A DNA stretch of 64,000 nucleotides from Thermodesulfovibrio sp. (GCA_026982355.1 JALSHG010000046.1:5314-69313); one strand, 5' to 3'; shown: positions 12,346 to 40,447, numbered from the stretch's first letter. Notes: generated by a model from the letters alone, not told the origin. Numbers and translations: made by a program.

Positions 12346-16032
<3,687 letters not shown>

Positions 16033-17366: not shown

Positions 17367-20300
17367 TCATTGAAAGCAAGCACAGGATCCACTGGAATCG
17401 ATCTTCAGTATCCACATATCATTCCAGGTAGACCCTGAGCCGAAAGAACGGGTACTTCCGGAAGCAATGTAGCCGCCATCAGTAATCTTTTTTATAACGT
17501 TTATCACATCATAATGTGCGGTACCATATGCCTTTTGCCACTGGATATCGCCGGCTGAATCAATCTTAAGTACCCATGCATCCTGATTATTAGAAGAGGG
17601 AGGAAAGAGATTGGCTCCTATAATGTATCCGCCGTCACCGGTCGTTTGAATATAGGGATTACCATCAACATCATCGACATTCAGATATTCTTTCTGCCAT
17701 AAAATCGTGCCGTTGCTATCCGTTTTTATAATAATCAGATGCGTTTCTCTAAGATATGGCCATTCTTCACCTTCACCAGGTGGCAATTCACCCTCTCCCA
17801 CCGGAACCACCCCTGGTGGCAATTCTCCAGAGGGCTGGACAGTAACTGTACCGGCAATAACATATCCATTATCATTTGTTGTCTCTATGGATGAGAAATA
17901 AATGTTTTCGTAAACTGTCGAATTATATCCCTTAATCCATTGTATTTCCCCGTCATTATCAAATCCGATTAACACGGGAGTGGAAGGCAATCCACTATAC
18001 TTATTTTCAGTTATCCACCCAACAGCAATAAACCCGCTATCAGCAGTTTGTTTAAAATCTGAAATCCCTGAATCGCTTAAATCGCCCTGATGATGGAACT
18101 TCCACCACTGTGTCTGACCATTACTGCCGAGTTTCAGTAGCATGATGCCATCCTGCCATCTTTCCTGATCTCGAATGTATATTTCCAGTCTGCCGATCAA
18201 TACATATCCTCCATCCATTGTCTGCCTTATCGAGGTAAAAGAGGTATGTCCTATATCATAATCCATCAACCCATATATCATCGCTCCGTTAACCACTTTA
18301 TTCCATATTATGTTTCCGTTTTCATCGAGTTTTATGACGAGCGGACCCGCTTCATTAACCTTAATACTGCCACCCAGCAGGATGTATCCACCATCAGATA
18401 TCTGATGGATCTCAAGAGCACCCTGATGAGCCGGATACCATAGTTGTTTATCCCATTCCACCTTCCCATTTGCAGAAAGTTTGATTGCCCTGATATCCCT
18501 GACATTGTCATTGTCGTACTGAGTGGTGGTTCCGGCTATTATGAATCCACCATCAGATGTCTGTTCAACATAATTGGCATTCATAGGCCCAAACGCCTTA
18601 GACCAGGTGTTATCTCCTTCAATACTAACAGTAGCAGTTGCCTCTAACCCGATACTATCCGTTACCCTCAGAGTCACGGCAGTGCCACCGCACTGAGAAT
18701 ATACTGTTTGCCCTGTATCTATGACTTTTATATCTGAGGGAACTTTCTGATGGAGATCAATACCCATTGGATAGTTCATGATACTACCGCTTTCCACTAA
18801 TGTGGAATCTGCCACCATTGCATCAGTCTCATAACTGATATTACACGGCTGAATGTTTACGATTGCGGTACCATTTCCATTATCAATAAGATTGATTGAA
18901 TCAGGCACAGCCTCATTACCTGTGCCTATCAATTCAAAGGTATAAGGTGGAACACCGCCACTTGCGGAGAATCCCTGTTGATCACCACATTGATCTATCA
19001 GAGCAACCGACGGTGATAACAACAGAGGCGGAACAACCATTATGGTTACGTTAACCTTCGCGCTCCCGCCGTTTGATGTTACGGAAATTGTATGCTGATA
19101 TACGCCTGGCTCAAGCCCTGTACGGTCGACACTTGCTACAAGCCTCTCGAATACTCCGGGGGCTGTCTCACCACTCATTAAGGAGACTGAAAGCCATGAG
19201 GGCAGATCATCAGTAATGCTCCAGTTCAGCATGTCTGTGTCGCTTGTGTTTTGAATGGTAAGCATTGCCTCAACTTCAGTTACGCCCAAGTCTATGGATG
19301 CAGGCTCAACAGACATGAATGGCGGAATACCGTAACCTGACAGGCTTACATGAACCTCGGATTCATCAGGGTCATCCGAGAGGATGGTAAGGTCCGCCCA
19401 GTGGGTGACATACACCTGACTGACCGGATCATAAGTTGCGGTTACAGTACAATTCCCTCCAGGCGGAAGGACGGATGGACAGTTGTTCGTCCGGGAGTAA
19501 TGAATCGACGTGCCGACAGATATTTCACGGATATGAAGATCGGCAAGTCCTGTGTTTGCTATTGTTATGTCCCGTGATTGGGTGGTGCCAAGTGGGACGG
19601 CAGAGAACTCTATACTGTCAGGCGTCACCTGTATATCAGGTCTTGCTATAACATTTGCAGCTATGTTTACATCAAATATTCCCTCATCCGGATCATTGGA
19701 CTTTATGTGTAATGTGCCTCCGTGAATGCCTGCAATAGTTGGTGTAAGTGTAATGGTTGCGGTACAGCTTCCCTGAGGCGGTAGTATCCCCGGACAGTCA
19801 TTAGTCTGGCTTAAAGATGTTGAACCGGTCAGGTATATGGAAAATATCCGTAAATCCGCCTCTCCTGTATTTGTAATTGCAACATCCTGAGTCCGTGTAT
19901 AATCACCTGTAACGTCTCCAAAGTCTATGCTTGCGGGGATGGCGGAGATATCGGGTAGAGTGAAGTTAACGGCAATGGTAAGAGGATTAAGATTCTGATC
20001 GTTTATGAAAACGCCTACGGACTGTATATCAGAAGGCACACAATCATTAATTTTTATCATGAAAGTGTCACGATATTGATAATCCAGATCTGCTTCAGCA
20101 GGAATAATATTGACCGGATATACGCTGTAGGGTGGAGAACCACCAAATATCTTGAACACCTGTCGGTCATTGCACCTGTCCATGGTGACAGTCTCAGGAT
20201 AAACAGTGAGGGGCCATTGTCCCTTGTCCCCTTCATAGAACACATAGAGCATGCCCGAGTAATCCCGCCATGTACCCTGCTCGAAAGGTTCCGGGGCCCT

Positions 20301-23300
20301 TGCAAGGGGGTCAATAATAAGCACATCGTTTCCTGCAAAGGGGTTAAGGTCTCCGATAGTGATAAATGTGCCGAAACCCTGTTTCCAGCCGGGATGTGCC
20401 TGGTCGCCTTTGAACATGAAATCCTCAGGGACACCTGAGCGGTCTGTAAGATGGATCGTTCCAGAAGGGAGTGTATCCGAGCCGTAAAAGCCCCACACAC
20501 TGCCCGGAACCTCTGAGCTTATTCTGCCAGGGGCGCCAACCAGTAAATCCTCGTACCCATCGCCATTGATATCACCGGCAGCCAGAGCTGCCCCGAATCT
20601 TGAGAGCACGGTTGAACCGTATATCTTCGCCATTGCACTGTGAGCTTCTCTTACTCCTGTATCAGATACAGGTCTTATTATCCCTGCCGGGAACTGACTG
20701 CCTGAAAAGATGTATACCATCCCTATCCGGGATTCCTGTATCTTTTCAGTAACAGGAGACCCGGACCATCCTCCACCCACTGTATATTCATAATCAAGAA
20801 ACTCTCCAGGACTTCCAAGAATCAACTCCCCTTTTCCATCCCCATCCAGGTCGGTTATCAGCATTGCCTTTCCAACCTCCCATCCGGGTGTAGCATCGTG
20901 ATACGATTCTCCAAACTCTGGACCAAAGACCACCACATACTGTTCTCCATTGTAAGTATATGCATTCAGAACCCTGTCACTTCCGCCGAAATCATTTCTG
21001 CCATAAAAGATAAATGCAGCACCCTTCCTCAGGAAGCTGTCATAACTCCTGTAATATCGGGGGGCGCCAACCACCAGATCATCCAGGCCATCTCCGTTGA
21101 TATCGCCAACGGCTATCCCTTCACCAAGGCCATCCCCCTTATATTCTGTAGTGAATATCCTCTGCCACTCACTCTCGCCCGTTATGACCACACCGTCTAT
21201 AGATGAAGGAATATTATCTACTATAATGTTTTGCGGCAATTCATTATTGCCGAAGATGACATAGACCTTTCCTGACCAGTCTATATCGGGCTGACCGGGG
21301 TTGAAGGGTTGTCGTGGTGCGGAGACGATAATATCCCCGTAATTGTCACCGTTTAGACTGGCCACCGCAACCTGATAGCCCAATTCCCGAAAGTTATCTC
21401 CTCTGATACGAATATCATATTCACCATAGGGGATATCATACCAGCGATTCCACTGTTCCCTCGGGCGTCCATAATAGATATAGGCAGCACCGCCAGTGTG
21501 GCCTTTGGATCCAACATCTTGATGTGTATCTTGAAAAGTGTCGGGATTTAAAAGATGAGAGCCCTCCTCGTTCAGGTCTGTGCTTCCGATGAGTAAGTCA
21601 TTTATGCCATCCCCGTTTATGTCCCCTGTGGCAAGTGAGTTTCCGATACGCTGGCAGAAATTGCTGTCCGGAGAATAGCAGGCTGTATAATCTCCCGAAA
21701 TGACCACATCCCAGTAGATATCCGTGGCATTTATATCCAGGTCCATGTATTGCTGTCCCGTGGGCAGGGAAACCCCCTCTACAGGACCGAAGGCTATATA
21801 TACTGCCCCCATGTACTGCCCCGGTCCGGACTGGTCCTGTGAGACACCTACAATCAGGTCATTGACTCCGTCACCTGTTATGTCACTGACCACTGCAGAT
21901 CTGATGTAACCGTTCGGTTTTCCAAATGCAATCAAGTCCTGGTCCGCCCAGGCGGCACTCTCGACACCCTTAAGGGCAAATTCCCCGGCAAACTGCCCAT
22001 CCCTCCCATAATCAACATCCAGCATGAGACTCACTTTCAGATTTTCACCCTGAAGTCTGCGAAGCTCCTCCGGCACTATGAATGTAAGTCGATCATAGGG
22101 TGCCCCCTGGCCAATCTCTACACCCAAAACAATCTCAACCGGGTGCGTGGGAGACTCTCCTGGATACCAGTCATTGACCCCGAACCTTACAACCATATCC
22201 TCTGGATGAGGGCTGAAGTGATCGCCAATTATTGATACTCTATCGCCTATGTAACCACTTGAGGGAATAATCTTATGAATGACAAGGTCCTTCCATGGAG
22301 GTAATCCGGTGCTTACTGAAGGGCCTTTTCTCCAGTAATCCTGATTGTATGGATCATCACGATCAACCAGTTTAAGTTCCATCCTGCCGGGATCATCAAA
22401 AATGGAGGTGCACTGAGTCACAAATGAGTCCGTATCAAGTTCAGCTATGCAGGTACAATCGACCTCATCACCGTTCCAGTAGACTTTGAACACATCGCCG
22501 CACATGGTACTAAACCCGAGTCCCCAGACATACCATCCACCATAGATATCATGCCAGTACATTCCATCGATAATCGGCGCCTCAATGACCGTGGTCTCGA
22601 AATGCTCGGGATACTCGGGAGGGTCTGCCAGACATTCAGGAGTCATACAGAGTCTGTCAGGGTAGTGATAAGGACCGCAGGAACCCTGGACATCAATACT
22701 GACATCCATCCTGTCCGTGCCTTCAGGCAGATCATAGACCCGGAGTGTGTGGATGTCTGCACCGATATCAGGATTGTCTCCGGTGGTAATATTACTTACA
22801 AGAGAGGTGTTCAAACTTTGAGCGGTTGACGGAACATTTACATCCTCAATGGTTATCCTGCCGACATCTATATCAAGGAGGTCAAGCACCACCCTGCCGA
22901 TTGTAGAAATCCTGCCTATAAATCTATTGAATCCGCCATTAGAAAAATCGGTATAGAGACCGAGTGTGTCCGAGGTGCCGGTAAACAGGATGCGAGGGTC
23001 CACACCTTCATAAGGACCGACCGCATCAATATACCAGCTTGCAGCATCTGCCTGTGTTGGGACAAGATTGAGGATATCCCTGATTATATAGAGTATATCA
23101 AGAACCCCCTCGACAATCTGTCTTGCGGTCTCTAATACAGGCAAAGCAGGCTGACAGACGAAAAAGCAGATCGCCTCGCCTGCTATCAATGCACGATCGA
23201 CCCAGCGCAGGATTCCTATAATATCATTCAGTATTCCGAGGACTTCACCGACATTGCAGATAGCCTCTCCCGTTGTGGAATGGCTTAGAATCTCATTTAT

Positions 23301-24665
23301 CAGGTCGAGCTTTCCGTTTATGAGGATAAAGATGTCACTGCCGAATATTGAATCCAGTGCTGAAAGCATCTGCGGGTCATAATCAGTGGGGAAGGAGACC
23401 TTCACGTCCTCCAGGAAGGTGATGATACGATTTAAATTCTCCTCAATCTTATTCCATGTCTCCTCAGGCACATAGGGCTTTACGAGTTGCTCCATTTTTC
23501 CGAGTGTCCTCTGTGTCTTGAGAATCAAGAGGTCAAATTCTTCTGAGAGTTCGTTGCCCTGAACATCCGGTGTGGGATCGACCGCAGGGACTACGTTGAA
23601 GGGAAGGGAATTGGACACATCTGTGTCGCTGTACACATAGACCTGAATCTCTTCATCCGTATTCAGAAACACAAATGGAACAACGACCTTCATGATGGTC
23701 TCAGTGGCTTCAAGCACAAATCCTGCGGCCCCCTGTTCAGTTCCCTTGAAATAAACCCCCATCACATTCTTATCAGGGGTGAAGCCCCTGCCTGTGAGGT
23801 TCAGTATCGAGCCTGACTGTCCGGTATCCGGAGAGACTCTCTCAAGGACGAGACCCGGCGCGGTTTGTTTAACATCAACATGGGCAGGATTACTCTCCAC
23901 CCCATTATATTCGGCATATACACCAAGGTGATTCTCCCCGCCGTTGAGCCGGACAGACACCTGAAAATAACCCGTATCAGGATGCGCCTGCCCGTATGTC
24001 TCCTCCGCTCCACCCCTTACGATAACATTTACACCGGGTACAGTACGTCCGCGAAGAATAACCGTCTGCCCGGAACTTACCCGGGGAGGAGGGATAACCT
24101 CCGGGATACCGAGCACTGTGACTGCGACACTGTCAGGGGTACTCTCCGATCCTTTCTCATCCTTTACAACAAGAGTAAAGGTATAAAACCCCTGAGATAG
24201 AGAGAGTACGGGGGTCACCAGATCCTCAGGGTCAGGGTCTCCTGTCCATATGTACCGCGTTATGGTGCCGTCAGGATCACTGGAAGCACTTCCATCAAGC
24301 TGAACATCTGTTGCAGTCTCTCCCTCAGGGAGAACTAAAATCCTGTCCTCCCCTGCATTTGCAACAGGCGGCTGGTTTTCATGAGAGACAATCTCACATC
24401 CGGGGAGTGTACACAGAAGGACAAGTTTCCTTGCATCAAGCCCTGTGATTACACCGTCACCGTCGATATCACATTCAGGGCAATTTTCTGAAGACTGGTT
24501 CCGATACTGCAGAAGGATACGTACGTCATCTCTGTCTATATCATCATCGTTATCAAGGTCCCCGGTAACCGCAGATAATGGAATGGCTGTAAAGATGAGT
24601 GTGAGAAAAACAAACAGACCTTTAATACAATACCTTTGAATTCCGGTAAGATTCCATTTTTTCAT
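17367..24665 (-). CDS. giant secreted multidomain surface protein (2432 aa): dockerin-like, PKD, IPT/TIG, FG-GAP/integrin-alpha repeats, ASH (HYDIN-like) Ig domains, C-terminal ~50-aa tandem repeat beta-propeller-like region
   Basis: Signal peptide; DLDNDDDIDRDDV / CDIDGDGVITGLDARKL dockerin-type Ca loops; DGSASSDPDGTITRYIW (PKD); several GDINGDG(I/L/Y)(N/D/E)DLL(I/V)G(S/A)P FG-GAP repeats; DFGDV...NTGEADL / IANTGLADL ASH domains; 8-9 C-terminal repeats of the TxDGGYIxxG...DxWVLKxDxxGxxxWxK pattern. GC is visibly lower than in flanking housekeeping genes. Confidence 0.8.
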   Translation of the reverse strand: MKKWNLTGIQRYCIKGLFVFLTLIFTAIPLSAVTGDLDNDDDIDRDDVRILLQYRNQSSENCPECDIDGDGVITGLDARKLVLLCTLPGCEIVSHENQPPVANAGEDRILVLPEGETATDVQLDGSASSDPDGTITRYIWTGDPDPEDLVTPVLSLSQGFYTFTLVVKDEKGSESTPDSVAVTVLGIPEVIPPPRVSSGQTVILRGRTVPGVNVIVRGGAEETYGQAHPDTGYFQVSVRLNGGENHLGVYAEYNGVESNPAHVDVKQTAPGLVLERVSPDTGQSGSILNLTGRGFTPDKNVMGVYFKGTEQGAAGFVLEATETIMKVVVPFVFLNTDEEIQVYVYSDTDVSNSLPFNVVPAVDPTPDVQGNELSEEFDLLILKTQRTLGKMEQLVKPYVPEETWNKIEENLNRIITFLEDVKVSFPTDYDPQMLSALDSIFGSDIFILINGKLDLINEILSHSTTGEAICNVGEVLGILNDIIGILRWVDRALIAGEAICFFVCQPALPVLETARQIVEGVLDILYIIRDILNLVPTQADAASWYIDAVGPYEGVDPRILFTGTSDTLGLYTDFSNGGFNRFIGRISTIGRVVLDLLDIDVGRITIEDVNVPSTAQSLNTSLVSNITTGDNPDIGADIHTLRVYDLPEGTDRMDVSIDVQGSCGPYHYPDRLCMTPECLADPPEYPEHFETTVIEAPIIDGMYWHDIYGGWYVWGLGFSTMCGDVFKVYWNGDEVDCTCIAELDTDSFVTQCTSIFDDPGRMELKLVDRDDPYNQDYWRKGPSVSTGLPPWKDLVIHKIIPSSGYIGDRVSIIGDHFSPHPEDMVVRFGVNDWYPGESPTHPVEIVLGVEIGQGAPYDRLTFIVPEELRRLQGENLKVSLMLDVDYGRDGQFAGEFALKGVESAAWADQDLIAFGKPNGYIRSAVVSDITGDGVNDLIVGVSQDQSGPGQYMGAVYIAFGPVEGVSLPTGQQYMDLDINATDIYWDVVISGDYTACYSPDSNFCQRIGNSLATGDINGDGINDLLIGSTDLNEEGSHLLNPDTFQDTHQDVGSKGHTGGAAYIYYGRPREQWNRWYDIPYGEYDIRIRGDNFRELGYQVAVASLNGDNYGDIIVSAPRQPFNPGQPDIDWSGKVYVIFGNNELPQNIIVDNIPSSIDGVVITGESEWQRIFTTEYKGDGLGEGIAVGDINGDGLDDLVVGAPRYYRSYDSFLRKGAAFIFYGRNDFGGSDRVLNAYTYNGEQYVVVFGPEFGESYHDATPGWEVGKAMLITDLDGDGKGELILGSPGEFLDYEYTVGGGWSGSPVTEKIQESRIGMVYIFSGSQFPAGIIRPVSDTGVREAHSAMAKIYGSTVLSRFGAALAAGDINGDGYEDLLVGAPGRISSEVPGSVWGFYGSDTLPSGTIHLTDRSGVPEDFMFKGDQAHPGWKQGFGTFITIGDLNPFAGNDVLIIDPLARAPEPFEQGTWRDYSGMLYVFYEGDKGQWPLTVYPETVTMDRCNDRQVFKIFGGSPPYSVYPVNIIPAEADLDYQYRDTFMIKINDCVPSDIQSVGVFINDQNLNPLTIAVNFTLPDISAIPASIDFGDVTGDYTRTQDVAITNTGEADLRIFSIYLTGSTSLSQTNDCPGILPPQGSCTATITLTPTIAGIHGGTLHIKSNDPDEGIFDVNIAANVIARPDIQVTPDSIEFSAVPLGTTQSRDITIANTGLADLHIREISVGTSIHYSRTNNCPSVLPPGGNCTVTATYDPVSQVYVTHWADLTILSDDPDESEVHVSLSGYGIPPFMSVEPASIDLGVTEVEAMLTIQNTSDTDMLNWSITDDLPSWLSVSLMSGETAPGVFERLVASVDRTGLEPGVYQHTISVTSNGGSAKVNVTIMVVPPLLLSPSVALIDQCGDQQGFSASGGVPPYTFELIGTGNEAVPDSINLIDNGNGTAIVNIQPCNISYETDAMVADSTLVESGSIMNYPMGIDLHQKVPSDIKVIDTGQTVYSQCGGTAVTLRVTDSIGLEATATVSIEGDNTWSKAFGPMNANYVEQTSDGGFIIAGTTTQYDNDNVRDIRAIKLSANGKVEWDKQLWYPAHQGALEIHQISDGGYILLGGSIKVNEAGPLVIKLDENGNIIWNKVVNGAMIYGLMDYDIGHTSFTSIRQTMDGGYVLIGRLEIYIRDQERWQDGIMLLKLGSNGQTQWWKFHHQGDLSDSGISDFKQTADSGFIAVGWITENKYSGLPSTPVLIGFDNDGEIQWIKGYNSTVYENIYFSSIETTNDNGYVIAGTVTVQPSGELPPGVVPVGEGELPPGEGEEWPYLRETHLIIIKTDSNGTILWQKEYLNVDDVDGNPYIQTTGDGGYIIGANLFPPSSNNQDAWVLKIDSAGDIQWQKAYGTAHYDVINVIKKITDGGYIASGSTRSFGSGSTWNDMWILKIDSSGSCACFQ

Positions 24666-24729: not shown

Positions 24730-25323
24730 TTACTGCTTCTTTCTTTTTCTTAAAAACCCTATTACTGCCAGACCACTTCCCACAAGCAGTAAAGTGCCGG
24801 GCTCAGGAACCACATTGACATTTCCACTCTGCACAGTAGCATAAAGAGGACTTGCCCAGGCATCAGATAGGGAATTGATATAGACATCTAAAGAACTTGA
24901 CCCTAAGGCAAGGGTATCAAAACTAAGGGTTGCAAGGGTAAAACTCCCCGCCTGCCATGTATCCAGATCATAAGGGGAATCAAAAGAAAGCTCAAAGAGA
25001 TTAACATTGCCATATTCGGGAATGGTATTAGTGTAACTTACAAATCCCGATAGGTCCAGCTGGTCTCCAAGTACGGGATCGCCGTAGACTGCACTGTTGA
25101 AAGAAAGCACAGTCGGATCAAAAAGGATATCAAGATCAAACATGCCAAGAGAAGGTGGTGTATAATCTCCCAGCCCCGATATAACAATATCCACAAAGGC
25201 TTGCTCACCTGAGAGCACATCCTGATCTACAGGGTCAAAGCTGATGGTTACAGCATAAGATGAATTGAGGCTGAAAAGCAGCAGCATCGCCGTTGCCGTG
25301 AATAAAAACAATACCTTTTTCAT
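24730..25323 (-). CDS. PEP-CTERM sorting-domain protein (exosortase substrate)
   Basis: MKKVLFLFTATAMLLLF signal peptide; C-terminal VPEPGTLLLVGSGLAVIGFLRKRKKQ = PEP motif + TM helix + basic tail; 64 bp upstream of the giant protein on the same strand. Confidence 0.85.
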   Translation of the reverse strand: MKKVLFLFTATAMLLLFSLNSSYAVTISFDPVDQDVLSGEQAFVDIVISGLGDYTPPSLGMFDLDILFDPTVLSFNSAVYGDPVLGDQLDLSGFVSYTNTIPEYGNVNLFELSFDSPYDLDTWQAGSFTLATLSFDTLALGSSSLDVYINSLSDAWASPLYATVQSGNVNVVPEPGTLLLVGSGLAVIGFLRKRKKQ

Positions 25324-25439
25324 GACCGGATACCCCCCTTTCCTGCTGAAACCGACGGGTATTTCAATCACTCAATGTGGTGTTGGTTATTTTTTACCAT
25401 ACGGGATGTCACAAACAGGTCACAGAAAGCCCCGATATA

Positions 25440-25490
25440 ACCTTGATGCCACATAAACCGGCAGGGTGGTCTGCCGTAAAAACCCCGGCC
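25440..25490 (+). repeat. MITE-like element, degenerate left-arm copy (d)
   Basis: gatgCcACATAAACCGGCAGGgtGgTCtGCCGTAAAAaCC resembles the left arm plus the start of the long-form insert. Confidence 0.5.
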
Positions 25491-25560
25491 GGAGTTCAGG
25501 GGCCCGCCGGGTATGAGGCAGGGGGATTATTGCGGAAGGGCCGGGGAGGGGGTGAACCGG

Positions 25561-28500
25561 TTATTTCATGCTTTCCCTGTAGACCGCCTCGGTCTCGGGT
25601 GAGGGCTTTACGCGAAGGACGCCGGAGAGTGCATTCAGGCAACTGTAATAGGTCTTTTTCACTTCACCGCGGTAGCCCAGGCGGGCGTAACACTTCATGA
25701 GTTGCTGGTACAGCTCCTCTGCAAGCGGATCCACTTCCAGCCCCCTCCTGCAACATTCTATCGCCCTTTTAAATTGACCGTTCTGCCGGAGGTATTCCCC
25801 CGTACCTGCAATATGCCGCAGAAATCTGTTCCTGAGACGTTCCCGCATGGAGAATGTCCAGTGAAACTCCGCATCTTCCCCGAGAAAATCGCCCTTATAC
25901 ATGCACAGGGCCTTCTCGAATAATTCAAACACCTTTCCGGGGCTCTTCGTGCTCCTGACCCTTGTCTCGATCTCCGAGAGGATTCTTTCAAATGCCCATG
26001 CATCCACCCAGCAGTATAGATGGTCCAGGGTCACCTTGCCTTTACCGACACGGATCGCCGCCTCGTTGCCGAGTATCCCGCGCAGCCGCTGGAGCGTGGT
26101 TGTAAAGGCGCTGACAGCGGCATCACCGTATGTATCGGGCCAGAGTGCGTCGATGAGCCTGCCCGTGCCGACCCCTCTGCCGCCGAATGCGATCAAGGCC
26201 TTCAGCAGGGCTACCGGTTTCTGCCGGGCCTTCTTCAGGAAACGCACCGGTCTTCCGTTTACGAGCAGGCCGAACCGGCCGAGGGTGTATATTTTTACAG
26301 GCCAGGGCCAGTCCTCGACATGAAGGGGGGGTGTGTCGGGGATGAGGTTGTGCCTTTTTACAAGATCAATGACATACTCTCTTTCTATTCCGGCCTCCAG
26401 CGCGCCGACACACAGCCGGGCCATCACACGGGGCCGCCAGAAGATGAAATAAACAAGCCCGTGTCTTCTGCCCAGGGCCATCGCCTGCCTGAGAAAACCG
26501 AGGGCGTTGCGTTTTTTCCCTGTGGCAAGCGCAAAATATGCCCCGGACACGAGGCACATATACTCTATCATGAGGCTCTTCATGCCGCGCCCGATCCCGC
26601 ATGCCGTGGAGAGGGCTTCAGCCGCCTCGTGATGTTCGCCGCGCTCAAACAGCACCTGTGCCATTGCATAGCGGATCATGGCCTCCATGAAAGGGAATCC
26701 TGCCGTGACTACAAGGTCAAGGGCTATGCTTATATGTTCAAAGGCATTCAGCAGGTCATGGCGGAGCATGGCCTCCCATGCCAGCAAATACCGGTAGTAT
26801 GCTGTGTTCATGATCTGCGAATCTCCCGCTTTCCCCTCCGCCTCTTCAAACAGCCTCCTTGCCCCCTCCAGGTCGCCGGTACCGAGGCAGCCGGATGCTC
26901 CGTGCATCAGAAGCTGCAGCAACATCGTATCCACACCGCTGCTCCGCACAACGCCGAGTCCCTCGGAAACCGTCTCAAGGCACAGGCTGTGCATGCCCTT
27001 AAGCGAGTAGCACATCGCCTCGAACGCCTTCAATGTTGTAAAGGCCAGGGGTGAGACGCGCCCGTCCCGCGCCAGGCTCCTGAGCGGGGCGATTACCTCT
27101 TCCGCCTTTGAGAACCGGCCCGTCCACTGGTAATACAGCGACACATCAACCTCCGACAATATCCTGAGACCGGGGTCCCTGACCTCACGGCAGGCGGCAA
27201 GAACGCGCTGCGCCCACTCTTCAATTTCAGGATGAGAGGGCTGTCTCATCAGCAGGGATATAAACATGCTGGATATCGCTCGGCTTTTTGTCTCCGTGGA
27301 GGGGAAACGGTGGCCGGAGCGGAAAAGCCCTTCAAGCACGGCTATCCACTTATCAAGCAATTTGAAATCCGCCTGTTCATATAAAACCGCATCAACCGCC
27401 CCGCAGCAGGACATAAACATTCCGCTGACGTCCTCCTGTGCCGCAAATCGCCTGTAGGCCCGATCAAACAGGACGCGGCTCACCGGTGAATCAAAAGGCA
27501 ACTCGCATACGCCAAGCCAGAAAAGGAGCCATGGAGCATTGTCGAGAAACTCTTCCGGAAGGCTCCTGATCCACTGCCCGAGCATCTGGTTTCTGCCCTG
27601 TGCAACAAGCCCCTCCGCATGCTTCATGATGAGATTTGCAAGCCCCCGCCGGTCCCTTGAAACGATGTAGAGGTGGGCCGCTTCCTCCGTCTCTCCGGCA
27701 TCCTCCAGTAGCAGGGCGGCCTTCCGCCTCAATCTGCGGAGTTCTTTGCGGGGATATGCCCTGTACGCACAGGAAAGGAGGAACTCCCTGAAAAGCGGAT
27801 GATATTGATACTTGTCCTCGGCCCCGGGCCGTTTGGCAATGAAATAGTTTCTCTGATACAGGGCCGCGAGTATCCCGGCGGAACGGTCCAGTCCCGTGAG
27901 TTTCATGGTCATATCAGGGTTCATCACGGGAAGCACGGATGTCTTCAGCAGGAACTCCCTGCTCTCCGCATCGGCATCGTCAAATGTTTCATTGGCGAAA
28001 TAGTCGAATATCTCATCATGGGAGGCGCTTTCAGGGTACTGATATTCCCCGCCGCCTGTGTCTCCCCTCTCAAGCATGAGCACAAGCCCGGCCACCCATC
28101 CGGATGACCGGCGGTGGAGAGTTTCAGCCGTTTCCCTTGGGACATCCCTCCTGATACGGATGATGCCCTCTGCCTCGTCAAGGGTGAGCTGCAGGTCTTC
28201 CCATGCAAGGAGGGAAACCATTCCATTGACCCTGAGGCGCACAAGCTCTTTCGGCATGCTGTCACGGCTGATAATTACAACATTGACCCCTTCGGGAATA
28301 CATGAGAGACCCTCTCTCATAACCACGTGCAGTAACGACCGGCGATCCGCCTCGTGATAGTTGTCAAGCACTATCACAAACGGCTGCCCAAGCCTGCTGA
28401 AAAGCTCCCCGAAGTACCGCCTTGTGAAAGCGGGGATGGATTTCCGGTATTCCGGCGTCAGAACGGGCAGGGGCTGCCGCCTCCGGGGACGGGCTTTCTT

Positions 28501-28758
28501 TGCCGCCAGCCCCATGTAATAAAAGAATGTGGCTGTATCGGAATCATGCTCATCAACCTGATACCACAGGCATGGAAGTCTCCTGGAATCTATATAACTG
28601 TTGAGGAGAGTGGTCTTCCCCGAACCCGGAGGACCCGTTATCCAGATGACAGGCCTGTTGCGTTTGCCGTCAAGCAGGCGGAACAACCTCTCGCGATTCA
28701 GCACTTCCGCATAAACGGGGCGTGTTATCTTTGCCGGATATACTGATTTGCCCTTCAT
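25561..28758 (-). CDS. large STAND-type ATPase transcriptional regulator: N-terminal P-loop NTPase (MalT/NB-ARC-like) + TPR-like helical region + C-terminal SARP (winged-helix + BTAD) domain
   Basis: Start assigned to MKGKSVYPAKI (ATG 28758), since the upstream in-frame extension is low-complexity. Walker A VIWITGPPGSGKTTLL, Walker B FVIVLDNYHE. C-terminal KIYTLGRFGLLVNGRPVRFLKKARQKPVALLKALIAFGGRGVGTGRLIDALWPD (OmpR/SARP wHTH) followed by a BTAD helical domain (LYCWVDAWAFE...). Confidence 0.75.
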   Translation of the reverse strand: MKGKSVYPAKITRPVYAEVLNRERLFRLLDGKRNRPVIWITGPPGSGKTTLLNSYIDSRRLPCLWYQVDEHDSDTATFFYYMGLAAKKARPRRRQPLPVLTPEYRKSIPAFTRRYFGELFSRLGQPFVIVLDNYHEADRRSLLHVVMREGLSCIPEGVNVVIISRDSMPKELVRLRVNGMVSLLAWEDLQLTLDEAEGIIRIRRDVPRETAETLHRRSSGWVAGLVLMLERGDTGGGEYQYPESASHDEIFDYFANETFDDADAESREFLLKTSVLPVMNPDMTMKLTGLDRSAGILAALYQRNYFIAKRPGAEDKYQYHPLFREFLLSCAYRAYPRKELRRLRRKAALLLEDAGETEEAAHLYIVSRDRRGLANLIMKHAEGLVAQGRNQMLGQWIRSLPEEFLDNAPWLLFWLGVCELPFDSPVSRVLFDRAYRRFAAQEDVSGMFMSCCGAVDAVLYEQADFKLLDKWIAVLEGLFRSGHRFPSTETKSRAISSMFISLLMRQPSHPEIEEWAQRVLAACREVRDPGLRILSEVDVSLYYQWTGRFSKAEEVIAPLRSLARDGRVSPLAFTTLKAFEAMCYSLKGMHSLCLETVSEGLGVVRSSGVDTMLLQLLMHGASGCLGTGDLEGARRLFEEAEGKAGDSQIMNTAYYRYLLAWEAMLRHDLLNAFEHISIALDLVVTAGFPFMEAMIRYAMAQVLFERGEHHEAAEALSTACGIGRGMKSLMIEYMCLVSGAYFALATGKKRNALGFLRQAMALGRRHGLVYFIFWRPRVMARLCVGALEAGIEREYVIDLVKRHNLIPDTPPLHVEDWPWPVKIYTLGRFGLLVNGRPVRFLKKARQKPVALLKALIAFGGRGVGTGRLIDALWPDTYGDAAVSAFTTTLQRLRGILGNEAAIRVGKGKVTLDHLYCWVDAWAFERILSEIETRVRSTKSPGKVFELFEKALCMYKGDFLGEDAEFHWTFSMRERLRNRFLRHIAGTGEYLRQNGQFKRAIECCRRGLEVDPLAEELYQQLMKCYARLGYRGEVKKTYYSCLNALSGVLRVKPSPETEAVYRESMK

Positions 28759-28796
28759 GATCTTGCGCTCCCGCCCGCCTGTCTTATGGGCGACAT

Positions 28797-28898
28797 TAAG
28801 TGTAACCTTACAGCGGCATAAAACCACCGCCCGCGGGCAGGAGAGTCCGGAGGTTTTACGCCGGACTCCCCTGCCGGCTTGTGCGACATCAGGGTTAA
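28797..28898 (-). repeat. MITE/REP-like element, short form, inverted orientation (copy e)
   Basis: taaccTTACAGcgGCATAAAAcCACCgcccgcgGGCAGGAGAGTCCGGaggttttacgCCGGACTCcCCTGCCGGCTTgTGCgACatcagggTTAAG; in the divergent promoter region between the regulator and the kinase/pyrophosphorylase gene. Confidence 0.8.
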
Positions 28899-28942
28899 GT
28901 TTTATGTAACACTGACAATATGTTAAAATACTGAATCCGCCT

Positions 28943-31900
28943 ATGTCCAACGTGCTTGTCGAAACAATAGTGAGCGAAGATGAAGCCGTCCGCCATCGCT
29001 CCATTGACTCCCTCCTGCACGACAAAGACAGGGGACAGATACTGAAACTCGCCGGTGAGCTGGAAGCCTTCCGCACATCCTCCGACAATCTCTACCACAA
29101 AGTCAGGGCATCCCTGTTCCTGTTTGCAATCTACAGGTTTCACCTCATGAGAGACCGGAAGACACCCGGGCAGGGGAAAATCCCGTCTGACGGGGTGAAG
29201 GCCGCATTTGCGAGGGATTTCGAAAAATCCATTGCCGTATACTTGAGAGAGATTAATGACAAAGGTGTCCGGAACCGCACCGTGTTCAGCGCGGTCGCGG
29301 ATGCGTACTATAAGCTTTCCTTCAAGTATCTGATCGATCAGGTGAAGCTGTCGATAAGCCGGCGCAGGGAGAATCATCACCTCTACAACATCGACAGCCC
29401 GGATGAATATCCGTTCTCCGTGCCTGCCGTGATGACGGCTCCCGACCCCGTAACCGGCCTGTATCCCGTGGGTATGGATGCATCACCCGTGAGGCTCGAC
29501 CCCTCACACAGCGGGTGGTCGGATATATTTTTTCTCGGTATGGATTTCCCGGAAGGCGCCAGGGTTGTCAATTTGTCGGTTGACCTGAGAATCCACGGCG
29601 GCAATGAGCCGCTGAGGCCGCCGTGTGAATGCTGGTGCCGTTTTATACGGGAGCCGGTCATACATCTGGTCTCCACGGACCTGAGGGCATCCAAGAAGAT
29701 ACACACGCTGCGGGAGCTGTTCAATTTCGGCAATGACCATCTCTCCCTGCTCAAGGCCGGTGTCGTGGCCTCAGGGATCATTCCCCCATGCTTTGAGAAC
29801 AGGGATATCCGGCTGCAGGACATTCTGAAAAGGCTGACCGGCGAAACAGGAGGGATTCAGATAGTCACGAGGGTGAACGGCATACCCAAGGGCTCCAGGC
29901 TTGCGGTAAGCACAACCCTCCTGGCGGCCATCATAACACAGTTGATGAGATTCAGCGGCCAGATAAGAAACCTGACCGGTCCCCTGCAGGAAGAGGACAG
30001 GCGTATTGTGGCCTCAAGGGCGATCCTCGGGGAATGGCTCGGGGGCTCCGGCGGGGGATGGCAGGATTCGGGCGGGCTCTGGCCGGGCATAAAGCTGATT
30101 ACGGGCGTTGCCGCTGCCGAAGGTGATCCCGAGTTCGGCGTAAGCCGGGGCTGCCTGCTGCCCCGGCATCATGTTTTCACCGAAGAAGATATTCCGCCCG
30201 GGGTGGAAAAAAAGATAGTCGACTCCATGGTGCTCGTGCACGGCGGAATATCACAGGATGTGGGGCCGATACTCGAAATGGTCACGGAAAAGTATCTCCT
30301 GAAATATGAAAGGCAGTGGCAGGCCAGGTTGAAGGGAATCAGCCTGTTCGATGAAATAGTCGATGCACTGAAGGCCGGCGACATGAGGGAACTCGGCAGG
30401 CTAACGACAGAGGACTGGGAAGAGGCCATACAGCCCGTCGTTCCATGGGTGAACAATGCATTCACCGAAGACCTGATAAACAGGCTCGGGCATGAATTCA
30501 GGGGTGATTACCTCGGTTTCCTGATGCTCGGCGGAATGTCCGGGGGAGGCATGGCGTTTATAGTCAACCCCGGGGTACGGGATGTATTCAAAAAAAGGGC
30601 CGGTGAGATAATGAACGATCTGAAAGCGGTATACAGCTCTTCATATCCCTTTATTATTGATCCGGTTGTGTATGACTTTGCGATTAATCACGAGGGCATC
30701 ACGGCCGGGCTCTTCACCGGGGGCCTCGCAAAGATGCCAGTTATGCCCCCGGCGCCTGCGGGGGTGATCAATTTAAACACAAGAGAAGGCCCGGGCGAGG
30801 AAGAAATCAGGGAAAAGTACGGCTTCGACCCAGCTTCGCACGAGCACATGAAGGCCATGCTTAAAAGGGGAGAGATCGGGCTTGCAAAAAACCGGCTGCC
30901 GCGGACCGCGGTGATAGAGGATGTCCGGTATGGAGACATACTGCATTTTGAAGATGATGAGGACGCCCTCTCATCCGGCGCACCTTCCGCTTTCCGGCGG
31001 TTTCATGAAGCCGGAATGGAGGCCTTAAGGAAACGCGAGGCCGCGGTGGTCACATTCGCAGGGGGCATGGGAAGCCGGTGGTCCCGCGGGGCGGCGGTTG
31101 TCAAACCCGTTAACCCCTTCGTGAAAATGGACGGAAGATACAGGACGTTTATTGAGATACACCTTGCCAAGAGCAAGCGGACCGGGATGCTGTCGGGCCA
31201 TGAGATACAGCATGTGTTCACCACAAGTTACCTGACCCACCACGCCATTGCCCGGTACCTCCGGAGCTTTTCATATTTCGGATGTGCCGGCCGCATCCAC
31301 CTGTCCCCCTCAAAGACCATCGGCCGCAGGGTCTATCCCATGGAGAGGGACCTGAGATTTCACTGGGAGGGTCAGCTCCGCCAGAAGCTGGATGACAACG
31401 CACAGAAGGTGCTGGATGATACTCATGCCGCGCTGATTGAGTGGGCGAAACAAAGGGGGGAGGGCGAAGACTACAGCGAAAACAGCCCCATACTCAGGTT
31501 TAATCCCCCGGGACACTGGTATGAAATCCCCAACATGTTGAAAAACGGAGTCCTCGCGCGCATGATAAGGGACAATCCCGGTCTGAAATATCTTCTATGC
31601 CACAACATCGATACACTGGGGGCGTATATTGAACCTGTGCTGCTGGGCATGCACATTGCCGGGGAGCAGTGTATTACATTCGAAGTAACCCCGAGACGCA
31701 TTGAAGACACGGGCGGAGGTCTCGCCCGGGTGGACGGGCACATCCGGCTCGTGGAGGGGACGGCGCTGCCCCGGGAGGAAGACGAATTTGAATTAAGTTA
31801 TTATAATACACTTACAAACTGGATAACCGTCGACTCCCTGCTGGAGTTCTTCGGTATTGACAGGGATACCCTTCTTGACGGCAACAGGCGGGATGAGATA

Positions 31901-32170
31901 CTCGATGCGGTCCGGGGGGTTGAGAGAAGAATCCCGACGTACGTGACCATCAAGGATGTGAAATATGTCTGGGGAAGCGGCCAGGAGGATGTATATCCGG
32001 TGGCGCAGTTTGAAAAGCTCTGGGGCGACATGAGCGGGCTGAAGGACCTGAAGGCCGCTTACGTCGCGGTTTCAAGGCACAGGGGGATGCAGTTGAAAGA
32101 GCCTTCGCTGCTTGATATGTGGGCAAATGACGGCTCATTTGAATATGTGAAGAACAGGGCGAGTTTTTAA
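28943..32170 (+). CDS. fusion protein: N-terminal unknown domain + GHMP-family sugar kinase-like domain + C-terminal UDPGP-family (UGPase/UAP-like) sugar-1-phosphate nucleotidyltransferase domain
   Basis: GHMP motif IPKGSRLAVSTTLLAAIITQ (P-x-GS-x-L-x-S-[ST] ATP loop) and GHMP C-terminal glycine motif GFLMLGGMSGGGMAFIV. Downstream, AGGMGSRW (cf. UDPGP LAGGxGTRLG) and CHNIDTLGA (cf. UDPGP N(I/S)DNLGA) motifs. 1075 aa single ORF. Confidence 0.55.
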   Translation: MSNVLVETIVSEDEAVRHRSIDSLLHDKDRGQILKLAGELEAFRTSSDNLYHKVRASLFLFAIYRFHLMRDRKTPGQGKIPSDGVKAAFARDFEKSIAVYLREINDKGVRNRTVFSAVADAYYKLSFKYLIDQVKLSISRRRENHHLYNIDSPDEYPFSVPAVMTAPDPVTGLYPVGMDASPVRLDPSHSGWSDIFFLGMDFPEGARVVNLSVDLRIHGGNEPLRPPCECWCRFIREPVIHLVSTDLRASKKIHTLRELFNFGNDHLSLLKAGVVASGIIPPCFENRDIRLQDILKRLTGETGGIQIVTRVNGIPKGSRLAVSTTLLAAIITQLMRFSGQIRNLTGPLQEEDRRIVASRAILGEWLGGSGGGWQDSGGLWPGIKLITGVAAAEGDPEFGVSRGCLLPRHHVFTEEDIPPGVEKKIVDSMVLVHGGISQDVGPILEMVTEKYLLKYERQWQARLKGISLFDEIVDALKAGDMRELGRLTTEDWEEAIQPVVPWVNNAFTEDLINRLGHEFRGDYLGFLMLGGMSGGGMAFIVNPGVRDVFKKRAGEIMNDLKAVYSSSYPFIIDPVVYDFAINHEGITAGLFTGGLAKMPVMPPAPAGVINLNTREGPGEEEIREKYGFDPASHEHMKAMLKRGEIGLAKNRLPRTAVIEDVRYGDILHFEDDEDALSSGAPSAFRRFHEAGMEALRKREAAVVTFAGGMGSRWSRGAAVVKPVNPFVKMDGRYRTFIEIHLAKSKRTGMLSGHEIQHVFTTSYLTHHAIARYLRSFSYFGCAGRIHLSPSKTIGRRVYPMERDLRFHWEGQLRQKLDDNAQKVLDDTHAALIEWAKQRGEGEDYSENSPILRFNPPGHWYEIPNMLKNGVLARMIRDNPGLKYLLCHNIDTLGAYIEPVLLGMHIAGEQCITFEVTPRRIEDTGGGLARVDGHIRLVEGTALPREEDEFELSYYNTLTNWITVDSLLEFFGIDRDTLLDGNRRDEILDAVRGVERRIPTYVTIKDVKYVWGSGQEDVYPVAQFEKLWGDMSGLKDLKAAYVAVSRHRGMQLKEPSLLDMWANDGSFEYVKNRASF

Positions 32171-32417: not shown

Positions 32418-32454
32418 ATGCCGCTTTAAGATTGATACAATTTCAGGGGTGCTC

Positions 32455-33486: not shown

Positions 33487-33489
33487 AAC

Positions 33490-33525
33490 CCCATGTGGCA
33501 TAAACGGGCACAGGAGTCCGCCGGC
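33490..33525 (+). repeat. MITE-like element, left-arm remnant (copy g)
   Basis: atGTgGCATAAACgGGCAcAGGAGTCCGCCGG with no matching right arm; in the 87-bp gap before the methyltransferase gene. Confidence 0.55.
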
Positions 33526-33573
33526 TGGATGCCGCGCCACCGCAGGGAAAAACCTGCGGGGTGCTTTAGTGAA

Positions 33574-40214: not shown

Positions 40215-40232
40215 GGCTTTTCCCCCTTGCAA

Positions 40233-40440: not shown

Positions 40441-40447
40441 CAACGTT

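What the first reader, a model, noticed from the sequence alone, without database searches (positions are those of the whole stretch)
25561..28758. STAND ATPase with C-terminal SARP (wHTH+BTAD) output, divergently paired with the kinase/pyrophosphorylase fusion gene
Domain order is P-loop NTPase (Walker A GPPGSGKTT at the extreme N-terminus), then a ~600-aa TPR-like helical sensor region, then an OmpR-type winged helix plus BTAD at the C-terminus. This is the reverse of AfsR-type SARPs (SARP-NB-ARC-TPR) and differs from MalT/LAL regulators, which end in LuxR HTH. It shares a 184-bp divergent promoter region (which itself contains MITE copy e) with the GHMP::UDPGP gene. It is likely an ATP- and ligand-gated activator of that sugar-activation gene or of the adhesin block.
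Basis: partly seen in the sequence, partly recalled or inferred. Interest (0 to 1): 0.55.

Follow-up and report, generated by a model that had tools for sequence, protein, structure and literature searches.

The report
MalT-type ATPase regulator with SARP output
This gene encodes a large ATP-switch transcription factor that joins a MalT-like sensor to a DNA-binding module known mainly from Streptomyces antibiotic regulators. Its likely target is the neighbouring cell-surface adhesin operon, and it belongs to a large, unstudied family in environmental bacteria.

Summary
ORF 25561-28758 (-) encodes a 1065-aa protein with three parts: a MalT-clade STAND ATPase with its winged-helix arm (aa 8-412), a TPR sensor (about 413-805), and a C-terminal SARP module (winged helix plus BTAD, aa 806-1065). 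HMMs, PDB profile hits and an AlphaFold model (pLDDT 88) all support this.

The architecture is not rare. At least 3,077 clusters at 50% identity carry this C-terminal module. They are generically annotated, and I found no paper on them.

I found no SARP-type box in the 184-bp divergent region, half of which is a REP/MITE-like repeat. The only tandem box in the 64 kb is TCTGTGACCTG-TTTGTGACATC at 25426-25405 (-). It sits 8 bp upstream of an extended -10 and about 100 bp upstream of the downstream operon. That operon encodes a PEP-CTERM cohesin and a 2432-aa dockerin-bearing FG-GAP protein.

The same box, with AfsR-box geometry, lies beside five homologues that were found without using the box as a search term. 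A degenerate version lies beside 25 of 50 regulator loci. A search that started from the box alone recovered the regulator in 17 of 120 metagenomic loci.

In many loci the box drives a conserved, uncharacterised protein of about 65 aa. The window lacks that gene.

Most likely this is a ligand- and ATP-gated activator of the adhesin operon, not of the sugar gene.

The parts
25561..28758 (-). Regulator gene, 1065 aa: MalT-clade STAND ATPase, TPR sensor, C-terminal SARP module
28609..28635 (-). Walker A (GPPGSGKTT, aa 42-50). Walker B is VLDNYH at aa 130-135 (nt 28354-28371), with N133 in place of the second acidic residue.
   Evidence: G45, G47, K48, T49 and D132 are invariant in 34 homologues. 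Position 133 is N in 27 of 34.
27523..28737 (-). NOD plus winged-helix arm (aa 8-412), homologous to MalT residues 3-409. Includes the SR sensor-1 motif (S164 R165) and the YHPLF motif (H320).
26344..27522 (-). All-helical TPR/SUPR sensor region (aa 413-805)
   Evidence: Pfam TPR_MalT at aa 601-776. MalT DT3 (PDB 1hz4) at profile positions 615-783. Helix pairs in the model.
26008..26307 (-). OmpR-type winged helix (aa 818-917). Recognition helix is at aa 878-896, with T887 and R891 aligned to the AfsR base contacts T88 and R92.
   Evidence: (weak Pfam hit)
25573..26007 (-). BTAD (bacterial transcriptional activator domain), aa 918-1062
   Evidence: Pfam PF03704 E 1.7e-19. AfsR and EmbR matches.
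25478..25546 (-). G+C-rich stem (CCCCGGCC...GGCCGGGG) followed by UUUUU. Probable terminator of the regulator gene.
   Evidence: Fold. The whole-region z-score is not significant. Inference from the stem plus U-run.
25405..25426 (-). Predicted binding site: two 11-bp direct repeats, TCTGTGACCTG and TTTGTGACATC. The first 8 bp of each are conserved.
   Evidence: The only tandem box in the window. 36 of 37 nt from box to -10 are identical to L001.
25391..25399 (-). Extended -10-like element (TGG TAAAAA), with the hexamer 8 bp after the second repeat. No -35 consensus is present.
   Evidence: The TG is conserved in all 12 aligned promoters and was not part of any search pattern.
24730..25323 (-). 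Predicted first target gene: 197-aa secreted cohesin-fold protein with a PEP-CTERM sorting signal
17367..24665 (-). Predicted second target gene (64-bp gap, no terminator found): 2432-aa secreted protein with an N-terminal dockerin-like module plus PKD, FG-GAP, Ig-like and BACON domains
28759..28942 (.). 184-bp divergent intergenic region. No tandem SARP-type box. The REP/MITE-like hairpin element occupies 28803-28891. A weak sigma-70-like match for the regulator lies at 28949-28920 (-).
28943..32170 (+). Divergent neighbour: 1075-aa fusion of a GHMP sugar kinase and a UDP-sugar pyrophosphorylase. Not predicted to be a target.
   Evidence: Synteny is kept only in L001.

Best explanation
**What it is.** The gene encodes a signal-gated transcription activator built like MalT but with a different DNA-binding end. 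The N-terminal MalT-clade STAND ATPase and the TPR sensor would hold the protein closed until an unknown ligand binds. Nucleotide-dependent opening and self-association would then place the C-terminal SARP modules side by side.

**How it acts.** Two SARP modules bind the two 11-bp direct repeats TCTGTGACnnn at 25426-25405. The repeats occupy about -40 to -19 of a promoter that has an extended -10 and no -35. The bound modules would recruit RNA polymerase as AfsR does, substituting for the -35 contact.

**What it controls.** In this window the promoter drives the PEP-CTERM cohesin gene and the giant dockerin-bearing FG-GAP protein. The regulator would therefore switch on a cell-surface adhesin display.

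**Shown.** The domain composition, fold and motif conservation. The presence, uniqueness and cross-locus conservation of the box. Its AfsR-like geometry.

**Inferred.** Physical binding, activation rather than repression, the role of ATP, oligomerisation and the ligand.
For: **Architecture.** Searches support the domain assignment.

**Geometry matches the AfsR box.** The AfsR paper PMC10936776 describes two 11-bp repeats at -40 to -19. The first 8 bp of each repeat are contacted, and the 3' repeat lies 8 bp from the -10. The window box has 8 conserved plus 3 variable bp per repeat, then 8 bp, then TAAAAA.

**Same box beside homologues that were not selected by the box.**
- L001 (89% identity), L002 (63%), L083 (65%), L084 (62%) and L048.
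- GTGAC-N6-GTGAC gives 5 hits in 1.25 Mb against 2.4 expected, and 4 of the 5 lie next to the regulator.

**Footprint.** Window and L001 share 36 of 37 nt from the box to the -10. The flanks diverge, and the downstream protein is only 63% identical.

**Family level.** A degenerate ATCYGTR tandem gives 33 hits against 1.8 expected in 50 regulator loci. 27 of them lie within 1.5 kb of the gene, which is 17% of the sequence.

**Reverse test.** Of 120 metagenomic loci found by the box pattern alone, 17 carry the regulator and 31 carry the regulator or the associated small ORF.

**Recognition helix.** The AfsR base-contact residues T88 and R92 align with T887 and R891. R891 is invariant in the family.

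**Promoter.** No sigma-70 -35/-10 pair is predicted upstream of the cohesin gene. A terminator-like hairpin follows the regulator gene.
Against: - No experiment exists for any member of the family.
- In the window alone the box is not significant: 13 of 100 shuffles give a match. The case rests on cross-locus conservation.
- Expected counts use a uniform base model.
- About 89 of the 120 box-anchored loci show neither the regulator nor the small ORF. Many are short contigs and some are chance hits, such as the L114 microsatellite.
- Half of the regulator loci show no recognisable box.
- Walker B lacks the second acidic residue (DN instead of DD), so the ATP cycle may differ from MalT.
- An extended -10 promoter could be active on its own. 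In that case binding at -40 to -19 could repress.
- Homologous cohesin-plus-large-protein pairs in other genomes lack this regulator. The link is therefore specific to this lineage.
Confidence: 0.65

Rival explanations
1. The regulator controls the divergently transcribed GHMP::UDPGP sugar-activation gene, and possibly itself, from the shared 184-bp region.
For: The divergent arrangement is kept in the 89%-identical relative L001, together with the downstream DUF362, methyltransferase and inositol-monophosphatase genes. Divergent boxes do occur in some family members: L048, L091, L106 and L085. A single GCGACAT-like word occurs on each side of the REP element.
Against: No tandem box is found there, and no half-site there scores above 10.5 bits in the PWM scan. 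89 of the 184 bp belong to a dispersed repeat element. The pairing is absent in L002. It is not seen among the box-driven genes inspected in other loci. L001 is too close a relative for its synteny to be informative.
Confidence: 0.12
2. The protein binds the same box but acts as a repressor. It would occlude a self-sufficient extended -10 promoter until a signal releases it.
For: The promoter has a conserved TGnTA extended -10, which can work without a -35. The box overlaps the RNA polymerase footprint. Loss of GSU1771, a Geobacter regulator with a C-terminal SARP module, gives thicker and more electroactive biofilms (PMC10599522), which would fit negative control.
Against: The position and spacing match the AfsR activation complex. 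BTAD-containing SARPs are characterised as activators. In four Burkholderiales-type loci the box precedes the small ORF, which lies upstream of the regulator on the same strand. This fits positive autoregulation.
Confidence: 0.13
3. It is an anti-phage STAND/NLR-like (Avs-type) sensor whose DNA-binding end is an effector, not a promoter-specific regulator.
For: Foldseek lists Avs3 and Avs4 among STAND matches. The protein is a large NOD-plus-repeat sensor.
Against: The best matches are MalT and AfsR, both transcription factors. PADLOC gives no defence-family hit beyond P-loop fragments and one 'TPR' model matching aa 821-918. Conserved promoter boxes with a -10 at a fixed distance accompany the gene. 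There is no nuclease, protease or TIR-type effector domain.
Confidence: 0.03
4. The tandem repeat at 25426-25405 is the site of a different factor, or a chance feature, and the regulator's real targets lie outside the window.
For: Significance in the window alone is weak. Half of the regulator loci lack a recognisable box. Most box-anchored contigs lack the regulator.
Against: Box and regulator co-occur in both search directions, far above expectation. The box sequence changes with regulator lineage while the geometry stays fixed.
Confidence: 0.07

Closest known systems
MalT (E. coli maltose regulon activator) and LAL regulators
   Same: The N-terminal NOD and winged-helix arm are homologous over about 400 aa: Walker A, the first Walker B Asp, the SR sensor-1 motif and the YHPLF motif. 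A TPR/SUPR sensor follows. The DNA-binding module is C-terminal and begins at the same relative position, about residue 806 (MalT boundary from my own knowledge).
   Different: The output is a SARP module (OmpR-type winged helix plus BTAD) instead of a LuxR-type HTH. Walker B is DN rather than DD in most members. The predicted sites are 11-bp tandem repeats overlapping the -35 position, not MalT boxes.
AfsR and other 'large' SARPs (SARP-NB-ARC-TPR), with target afsS
   Same: The SARP module is homologous (E 5e-14, TM 0.75). LIDALW and the base-contact residues T and R are conserved. The predicted box has the same geometry: 2 x 11 bp, 8 bp contacted, 8 bp to the -10. In much of the family the box sits just downstream of the regulator and drives a very small protein, as afsR does with afsS.
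   Different: The domain order is reversed, with the SARP module at the C-terminus. The ATPase belongs to the MalT clade, not NB-ARC, so this is an independent fusion. Hosts are Deferribacteres-like, Nitrospirota, Desulfobacterota and Proteobacteria, not Actinobacteria. There is no link to antibiotic clusters. No sequence similarity between the small protein and AfsS was tested.
GSU1771 of Geobacter sulfurreducens (REC plus C-terminal SARP; COG 'SAPR' type)
   Same: It is a non-actinobacterial regulator in which a sensory domain precedes a C-terminal SARP module. It controls biofilm and extracellular functions (PMC10599522).
   Different: Its input is a phospho-receiver domain of about 120 aa, not an 800-aa STAND ATPase plus TPR sensor. 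No homology beyond the SARP module is expected, and this was not tested here.
EmbR (M. tuberculosis; SARP plus FHA)
   Same: The SARP fold matches (Foldseek E 1.5e-5 over 256 columns; profile E 6.6e-6).
   Different: In EmbR the SARP module is N-terminal and is regulated through an FHA domain and phosphorylation.

Membership tests
SARP regulators | OmpR-type winged helix immediately followed by a BTAD | tested here: met
   BTAD E 1.7e-19. Profile match to AfsR residues 29-264 at E 5e-14 and to EmbR. Fold TM 0.75 to AfsR SARP. Pfam Trans_reg_C alone is sub-threshold.
SARP regulators | Target promoters carry direct repeats at 11-bp (or 22-bp) spacing, with the 3' repeat 8 bp from the -10 | tested here: met
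   A site with this geometry is at 25426-25391. It recurs beside homologues. The definition is taken from PMC10936776. This is an in-silico test only.
SARP regulators | Physical binding to the repeats and activation of transcription | not testable with these tools
   Needs EMSA or footprinting and in vitro transcription.
SARP regulators | SARP module at the N-terminus, as in the described small, medium and large SARP classes | tested here: not met
   The module is at aa 806-1065 of 1065. In all 150 best exhaustive-search hits it lies at the extreme C-terminus. Class definitions are from the preprint read.
AfsR-type large SARPs | NB-ARC-clade NOD downstream of the SARP module | tested here: not met
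   No NB-ARC hit appears among the 25 Pfam families shown of 37. The NOD matches MalT at E 3e-59. AfsR matches only in the SARP region.
MalT / LAL regulators (MalT clade of STAND) | N-terminal MalT-type NOD with Walker A/B and a winged-helix arm | tested here: met
   WHD_MalT (PF25873) is precomputed for P0001 and its homologues.
MalT / LAL regulators (MalT clade of STAND) | TPR/SUPR sensor domain | tested here: met
   Pfam TPR_MalT E 2e-14. PDB 1hz4 E 5e-5.
MalT / LAL regulators (MalT clade of STAND) | C-terminal LuxR-type HTH | tested here: not met
   No LuxR/GerE hit. The C-terminus is a SARP module.
MalT / LAL regulators (MalT clade of STAND) | Catalytic Walker B pair (DD) and an ATP-dependent switch | tested here: inconclusive
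   D132 is invariant, but position 133 is N in 27 of 34 members against D in MalT. Nucleotide binding and hydrolysis were not testable.
Anti-phage STAND (Avs-like) systems | Match to a defence-system model or a cell-killing effector domain | tested here: not met
   PADLOC gives only P-loop fragments and one 'TPR' model matching aa 821-918.
Cohesin-dockerin pair (predicted target operon) | Cohesin fold in one partner and a dockerin Ca-loop pair in the other | tested here: met
   Cohesin: the model has pLDDT 91.6, and the top 47 PDB hits are all cohesins at E down to 6.6e-12. Dockerin: two DxDxDG-type loops at aa 35-79. The Pfam hit is E 8.6e-4, 19.9 bits against a cut-off of 22.9, so the dockerin half is only weakly supported.

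The most novel reading that the evidence does not exclude
The family forms a conserved three-part regulatory cassette found in thousands of environmental bacteria. Its parts are a MalT-clade STAND ATPase with a C-terminal SARP output, a tandem 11-bp box joined to an extended -10, and a small protein of about 65 aa with no known family (motif YxVRIYRR...LVGVVEEVG...F.NLDELW.IL). The small protein is the canonical first target. It would act as the output or as a feedback partner of the regulator, giving an independently evolved counterpart of AfsR-AfsS. In the window's lineage the cassette has lost the small gene, and the box has been re-wired to a PEP-CTERM cohesin / giant dockerin adhesin operon. 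That operon runs from a different upstream motif in the other genomes checked.
Probability: 0.5. Interest if true: 0.65.

Novelty: new variant of a known kind. Interest (0 to 1): 0.5.

Why it matters
**SARP-type activation outside Actinobacteria.** SARP-type activation, in which a side-by-side dimer on 11-bp repeats replaces the -35 contact, has been worked out only in Actinobacteria. This locus belongs to a very large family in Nitrospirota, Desulfobacterota, Proteobacteria and Deferribacteres-like bacteria. At least 3,077 clusters at 50% identity carry its C-terminal module, and I found no paper on the family. It couples that output to a MalT-type ATP switch. A sequence-defined box is now predicted, so the idea can be tested directly.

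**Comparing two output modules on one switch.** The family offers a natural experiment: the same STAND switch drives either a LuxR-type output (MalT) or a SARP output.

**A handle on surface structures of uncultured bacteria.** For this organism the prediction names the regulator of a cohesin-dockerin surface adhesin anchored by PEP-CTERM. That gives a way to study the control of cell-surface and biofilm structures in bacteria that have not been cultured.

**A candidate new small regulatory protein.** The associated small ORF is a candidate for a new small regulatory protein family.

Tried and rejected
1. **SARP boxes in 28759-28942.** The repeat finder shows only a 93-bp-spaced pair flanking the REP element. 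The PWM scan finds no tandem site. Rejected.
2. **Pfam Trans_reg_C on the isolated C-terminal stretch.** The hit is sub-threshold. I relied instead on the profile and fold matches to AfsR and EmbR.
3. **Defence-system reading.** PADLOC is negative.
4. **Literature.** Four searches found no paper on a MalT-NOD plus C-terminal SARP protein. One apparent hit (PMC11672702) held neither term in the text available.
5. **The small ORF in the window.** tblastn and an HMM built from 40 members find nothing in the window, L001 or L002. A 10-codon remnant-like ORF (MKTGIIKIVR) follows the box in L002, but this is only an impression.
6. **The small ORF in Pfam and NCBIfam.** No significant hit; DUF7889 reaches only E about 0.05.
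7. **Whether cohesin homologues elsewhere carry the regulator or the box.** They do not (L205-L208). The cohesin operon is therefore not a family-wide target.
8. **The PEP-CTERM protein behind the L021 box.** It shares only the sorting tail with the window protein.
9. **L114.** Its six overlapping box matches are a plain 11-bp microsatellite.
10. **Terminator after the regulator.** The fold z-score is not significant, so the terminator call rests on the stem plus U-run only.
Full report
**Observation.** The ORF is exactly as reported: 25561-28758 on the minus strand, ATG at 28758 preceded by GGGAG, 1065 aa. An identical protein, P0001, exists in public metagenome data on a 71-kb contig.

- Pfam gives AAA_16/NPHP3_N at aa 19-165, TPR_MalT at 601-776 and BTAD at 918-1062 (E 1.7e-19).
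- NCBIfam aligns aa 8-412 with MalT (E 3e-59) and aa 848-1058 with AfsR.
- A 34-sequence family profile hits MalT (PDB 8bob) at E 2.4e-56 over positions 9-411. It hits AfsR (8k60, 8jke, 8hvr) at E about 5e-14 over positions 827-1070, aligned to AfsR residues 29-264. It also hits EmbR at 6.6e-6 and the MalT sensor domain 1hz4 at 5e-5.
- The AlphaFold2 model is confident (pLDDT 88.2, pTM 0.78). By Foldseek its best PDB match is the MalT NOD (TM 0.83 on the target). It superposes on the AfsR SARP domain (TM 0.75 over 249 columns) and on EmbR.
- Pfam Trans_reg_C alone is sub-threshold (E 0.0049). The winged helix is supported instead by the fold (two N-terminal strands, three helices, a wing hairpin), by an identical LIDALW motif, and by alignment of the AfsR base-contact residues T88 and R92 with T887 and R891. 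R891 is invariant in the family.

**Relation to MalT and AfsR.** The pairwise alignment with MalT shows:

- Walker A: GPPGSGKTT against SPAGYGKTT.
- Walker B: VLDNYH against VIDDYH.
- A shared SR sensor-1 motif and a shared YHPLF motif.

The second Walker B acidic residue is Asn in 27 of 34 family members. ATP may therefore be bound but hydrolysed slowly; this is an inference. The SARP module begins near residue 806. From my own knowledge, the LuxR-type domain of MalT begins at about the same position. The protein is best described as MalT with its output domain swapped. AfsR has an NB-ARC-clade NOD and an N-terminal SARP module. The two STAND-SARP combinations are therefore independent fusions in opposite order.

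**How common it is.** The word-indexed search returned 2,657 homologues at E <= 1e-5 among the 8,000 candidates scored. The best 120 are nearly all 1,030-1,130 aa long, and all but one cover 96-100% of the query. JGI names many of them by combining its MalT and SARP activator labels, and NCBI names some 'BTAD domain-containing putative transcriptional regulator'.

An exhaustive search with the last 286 aa found 3,077 clusters (50% identity) at E <= 1e-30 and 10,934 at E <= 1e-10. In all 150 listed hits the module lies at the extreme C-terminus.

Genome hits come almost entirely from metagenome-assembled genomes of Nitrospirota, Desulfobacterota, Geobacter, Burkholderiales, Gammaproteobacteria and others. 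Four literature searches found no paper on the family. The architecture is thus widespread and generically annotated but uncharacterised.

**The divergent region.** The 184-bp gap is real. Its central 89 bp (28803-28891) is a hairpin-containing element with other copies at 11539-11627, 53718-53816, 32359-32415, 32171-32236, 40397-40435 and 17305-17341. No tandem repeat of the SARP type is present. The neighbour is a genuine GHMP-kinase::UDPGP fusion. The pairing is kept only in the 89%-identical relative L001, not in L002.

**The box.** About 135 bp downstream of the regulator's stop codon, after a stem plus U-run, lies this sequence (25426-25391, minus strand):

TCTGTGACCTG TTTGTGACATC CCGTATGG TAAAAA

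It ends 68 bp before the ATG of the next gene.

On its own this is weak evidence: 13 of 100 shuffles give a match. However, the same motif lies next to the regulator gene in loci that were not selected by the motif:

- L001 (89% identity), even though another gene has been inserted between regulator and box
- L002 (63%)
- L083 (65%)
- L084 (62%)
- L048, where it is divergent from the regulator

GTGAC-N6-GTGAC occurs 5 times in 1.25 Mb against 2.4 expected, and 4 of the 5 lie beside the regulator.

Between the window and L001, 36 of 37 nt from the box to the -10 are identical. The flanks diverge, and the downstream protein is only 63% identical.

The alignment also shows a conserved TG one base before the TA of the -10, giving an extended -10. 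That TG was not part of any search pattern. No sigma-70 -35/-10 pair is predicted there.

The PWM scan finds this as the only tandem site in the 64 kb.

**Geometry.** The AfsR paper (PMC10936776) defines the afs box as follows:

- two 11-bp direct repeats spanning -40 to -19;
- the first 8 bp of each repeat contacted and the last 3 not;
- the 3' repeat 8 bp from the -10.

The unit here is 8 conserved bp (TCTGTGAC) plus 3 variable bp, repeated twice, followed by 8 bp and then the -10 hexamer. The match is exact in 5 of the 6 loci that were found without using the box. L084 has 7 bp to its best TAAAAA hexamer.

**Family-level tests.**

- *Forward test.* I scanned 50 regulator-anchored loci with a full-length gene (762 kb). 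A degenerate tandem pattern (ATYBGTD-N4-ATYBGTD) gives 33 hits against 1.8 expected under a uniform model. 27 of them lie within 1.5 kb of the gene ends, which is 17% of the sequence. They fall in 25 loci, nearly always on the regulator's strand, and usually with TAnnnT 9 nt later.
- *Lineage variation.* The repeat sequence varies by lineage (TCTGTGAC, ATCCGTA, ATCTGTAGG, ATTTGTCCCC) while the geometry stays fixed.
- *Reverse test.* A metagenome scan with the box pattern alone returned at least 120 stretches. 17 carry a regulator homologue next to the box, mostly with the box just after the stop codon. 31 carry the regulator or the small ORF described below. The rest are short contigs, possible distant regulon members, or chance hits such as the L114 microsatellite.

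**An associated small protein.** In many loci the first gene behind the box encodes a protein of 57-88 aa. Its motif is M-x-S-Y-[IV]-V-R-I-Y-R-R ... L-V-G-V-V-E-E-V-G ... F-x-N-L-D-E-L-W-x-I-L.

- It occurs in 18 of the 50 regulator loci, always on the regulator's strand. In 12 loci it lies within 300 bp downstream. In four Burkholderiales-type loci it lies upstream of the regulator.
- It occurs in 23 of the 120 box-anchored loci.
- It has at least 564 database clusters, no Pfam or NCBIfam family, and only 'hypothetical' names.
- The arrangement recalls afsR-afsS, where AfsR's direct target is a small protein encoded next door.
- The window, L001 and L002 lack this gene.

**What the box drives in the window.** The first gene (24730-25323) encodes a 197-aa protein with a signal peptide and a PEP-CTERM tail. 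Its model (pLDDT 91.6) matches only cohesin modules in the top 47 PDB hits (E to 6.6e-12, TM 0.77-0.80). Two homologues carry Pfam Cohesin.

After a 64-bp gap, the 2432-aa protein starts with a signal peptide and a dockerin-like pair of calcium loops. Pfam Dockerin_1 is just below its cut-off. PKD, FG-GAP, Ig-like and BACON domains follow.

The predicted regulon is therefore a surface-anchored cohesin plus a giant dockerin-bearing adhesin.

L001 keeps the pair but with a giant protein of different domain content. L021 (33% identity) has its own box in front of an unrelated PEP-CTERM protein. Cohesin homologues in other genomes (L205-L208) are also followed by large proteins. They lack both the regulator and the box, and they share a different upstream motif. 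The link is specific to this lineage.

The protein works like a SARP at the promoter and like MalT at the switch. It does not fully belong to either described family, because it has a C-terminal SARP module, no LuxR HTH and no NB-ARC domain.

The ligand, the nucleotide cycle, oligomerisation and the sign of regulation are inferred, not shown.

Noticed in passing
window 28803-28891; also 11539-11627, 53718-53816, 32359-32415, 32171-32236, 40397-40435, 17305-17341: A dispersed REP/MITE-like element of about 89 bp with an 18-bp hairpin (GCGGGCAGGAGAGTCCGG / CCGGACTCCCCTGCCGGC). The copies checked lie just after stop codons (ORFs ending at 11534 and 32170; the giant gene's stop at 17367). A related copy is in L001 at about 13040-13100. 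They may act as terminators or mRNA stabilisers.
   Followed up: partly
window 24730-25323 (-) and 17367-24665 (-): A PEP-CTERM-anchored single cohesin (confident fold match) lies next to a giant protein with an N-terminal dockerin-like module. This looks like a non-cellulosomal cohesin-dockerin surface display tied to the exosortase sorting system. Homologous cohesins elsewhere are also followed by large proteins (L205-L208).
   Followed up: partly
L006, L008-L010, L013, L015, L019, L023, L036, L048, L083, L091, L097, L105, L106, L117 and others (not in the window): A conserved small ORF of 57-88 aa (YxVRIYRR...LVGVVEEVG...FxNLDELWxIL) sits directly behind the regulator's box. It has no Pfam or NCBIfam family and at least 564 database clusters. 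Its function is unknown.
   Followed up: partly
L205 about 300-330; L206 about 7865-7885; L207 about 7725-7745 and 7860-7880: In genomes without the MalT-SARP regulator, the cohesin/PEP-CTERM genes are preceded by a shared motif GGAAAWTTTTACAY, present twice in L207. It may be the site of a different regulator of PEP-CTERM genes.
   Followed up: no
L001 13291-14517: In the 89%-identical relative, an AAA_14/DUF4143 gene plus REP-like sequence is inserted between the regulator and its box. The promoter block itself is unchanged.
   Followed up: no
window 28943-35045 (+): The GHMP-kinase::UDPGP fusion has its domains in the reverse order of Bacteroides FKP. It is followed by DUF362, a SAM methyltransferase and an inositol-monophosphatase-family gene. 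The same set is present in L001. This may be a sugar or inositol activation operon.
   Followed up: partly
window 132-135 of the regulator (nt 28354-28365) and family alignment A1: The Walker B motif is D-N (N in 27 of 34, G in 5) instead of the D-D of MalT. The loss of the presumed catalytic carboxylate is a family-wide feature.
   Followed up: partly
L002 5255-5290: Behind the box in L002 there is only a 10-codon ORF, MKTGIIKIVR-stop. It resembles the start of the small protein (MxSYIIRIYRR) and may be a decayed remnant.
   Followed up: no
window 6118-10617 (+); 36091-48736 (-); 49935-55124 (-): The context genes include a 1499-aa PilY1-like protein and a full chemotaxis cluster: CheA, a 677-aa protein with four CheW domains, two MCPs, CheB, CheR and a HEAT-repeat protein. 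Next comes the rpoA/secY ribosomal-protein region. This points to a chromosomal locus of a motile bacterium, not a mobile element.
   Followed up: no
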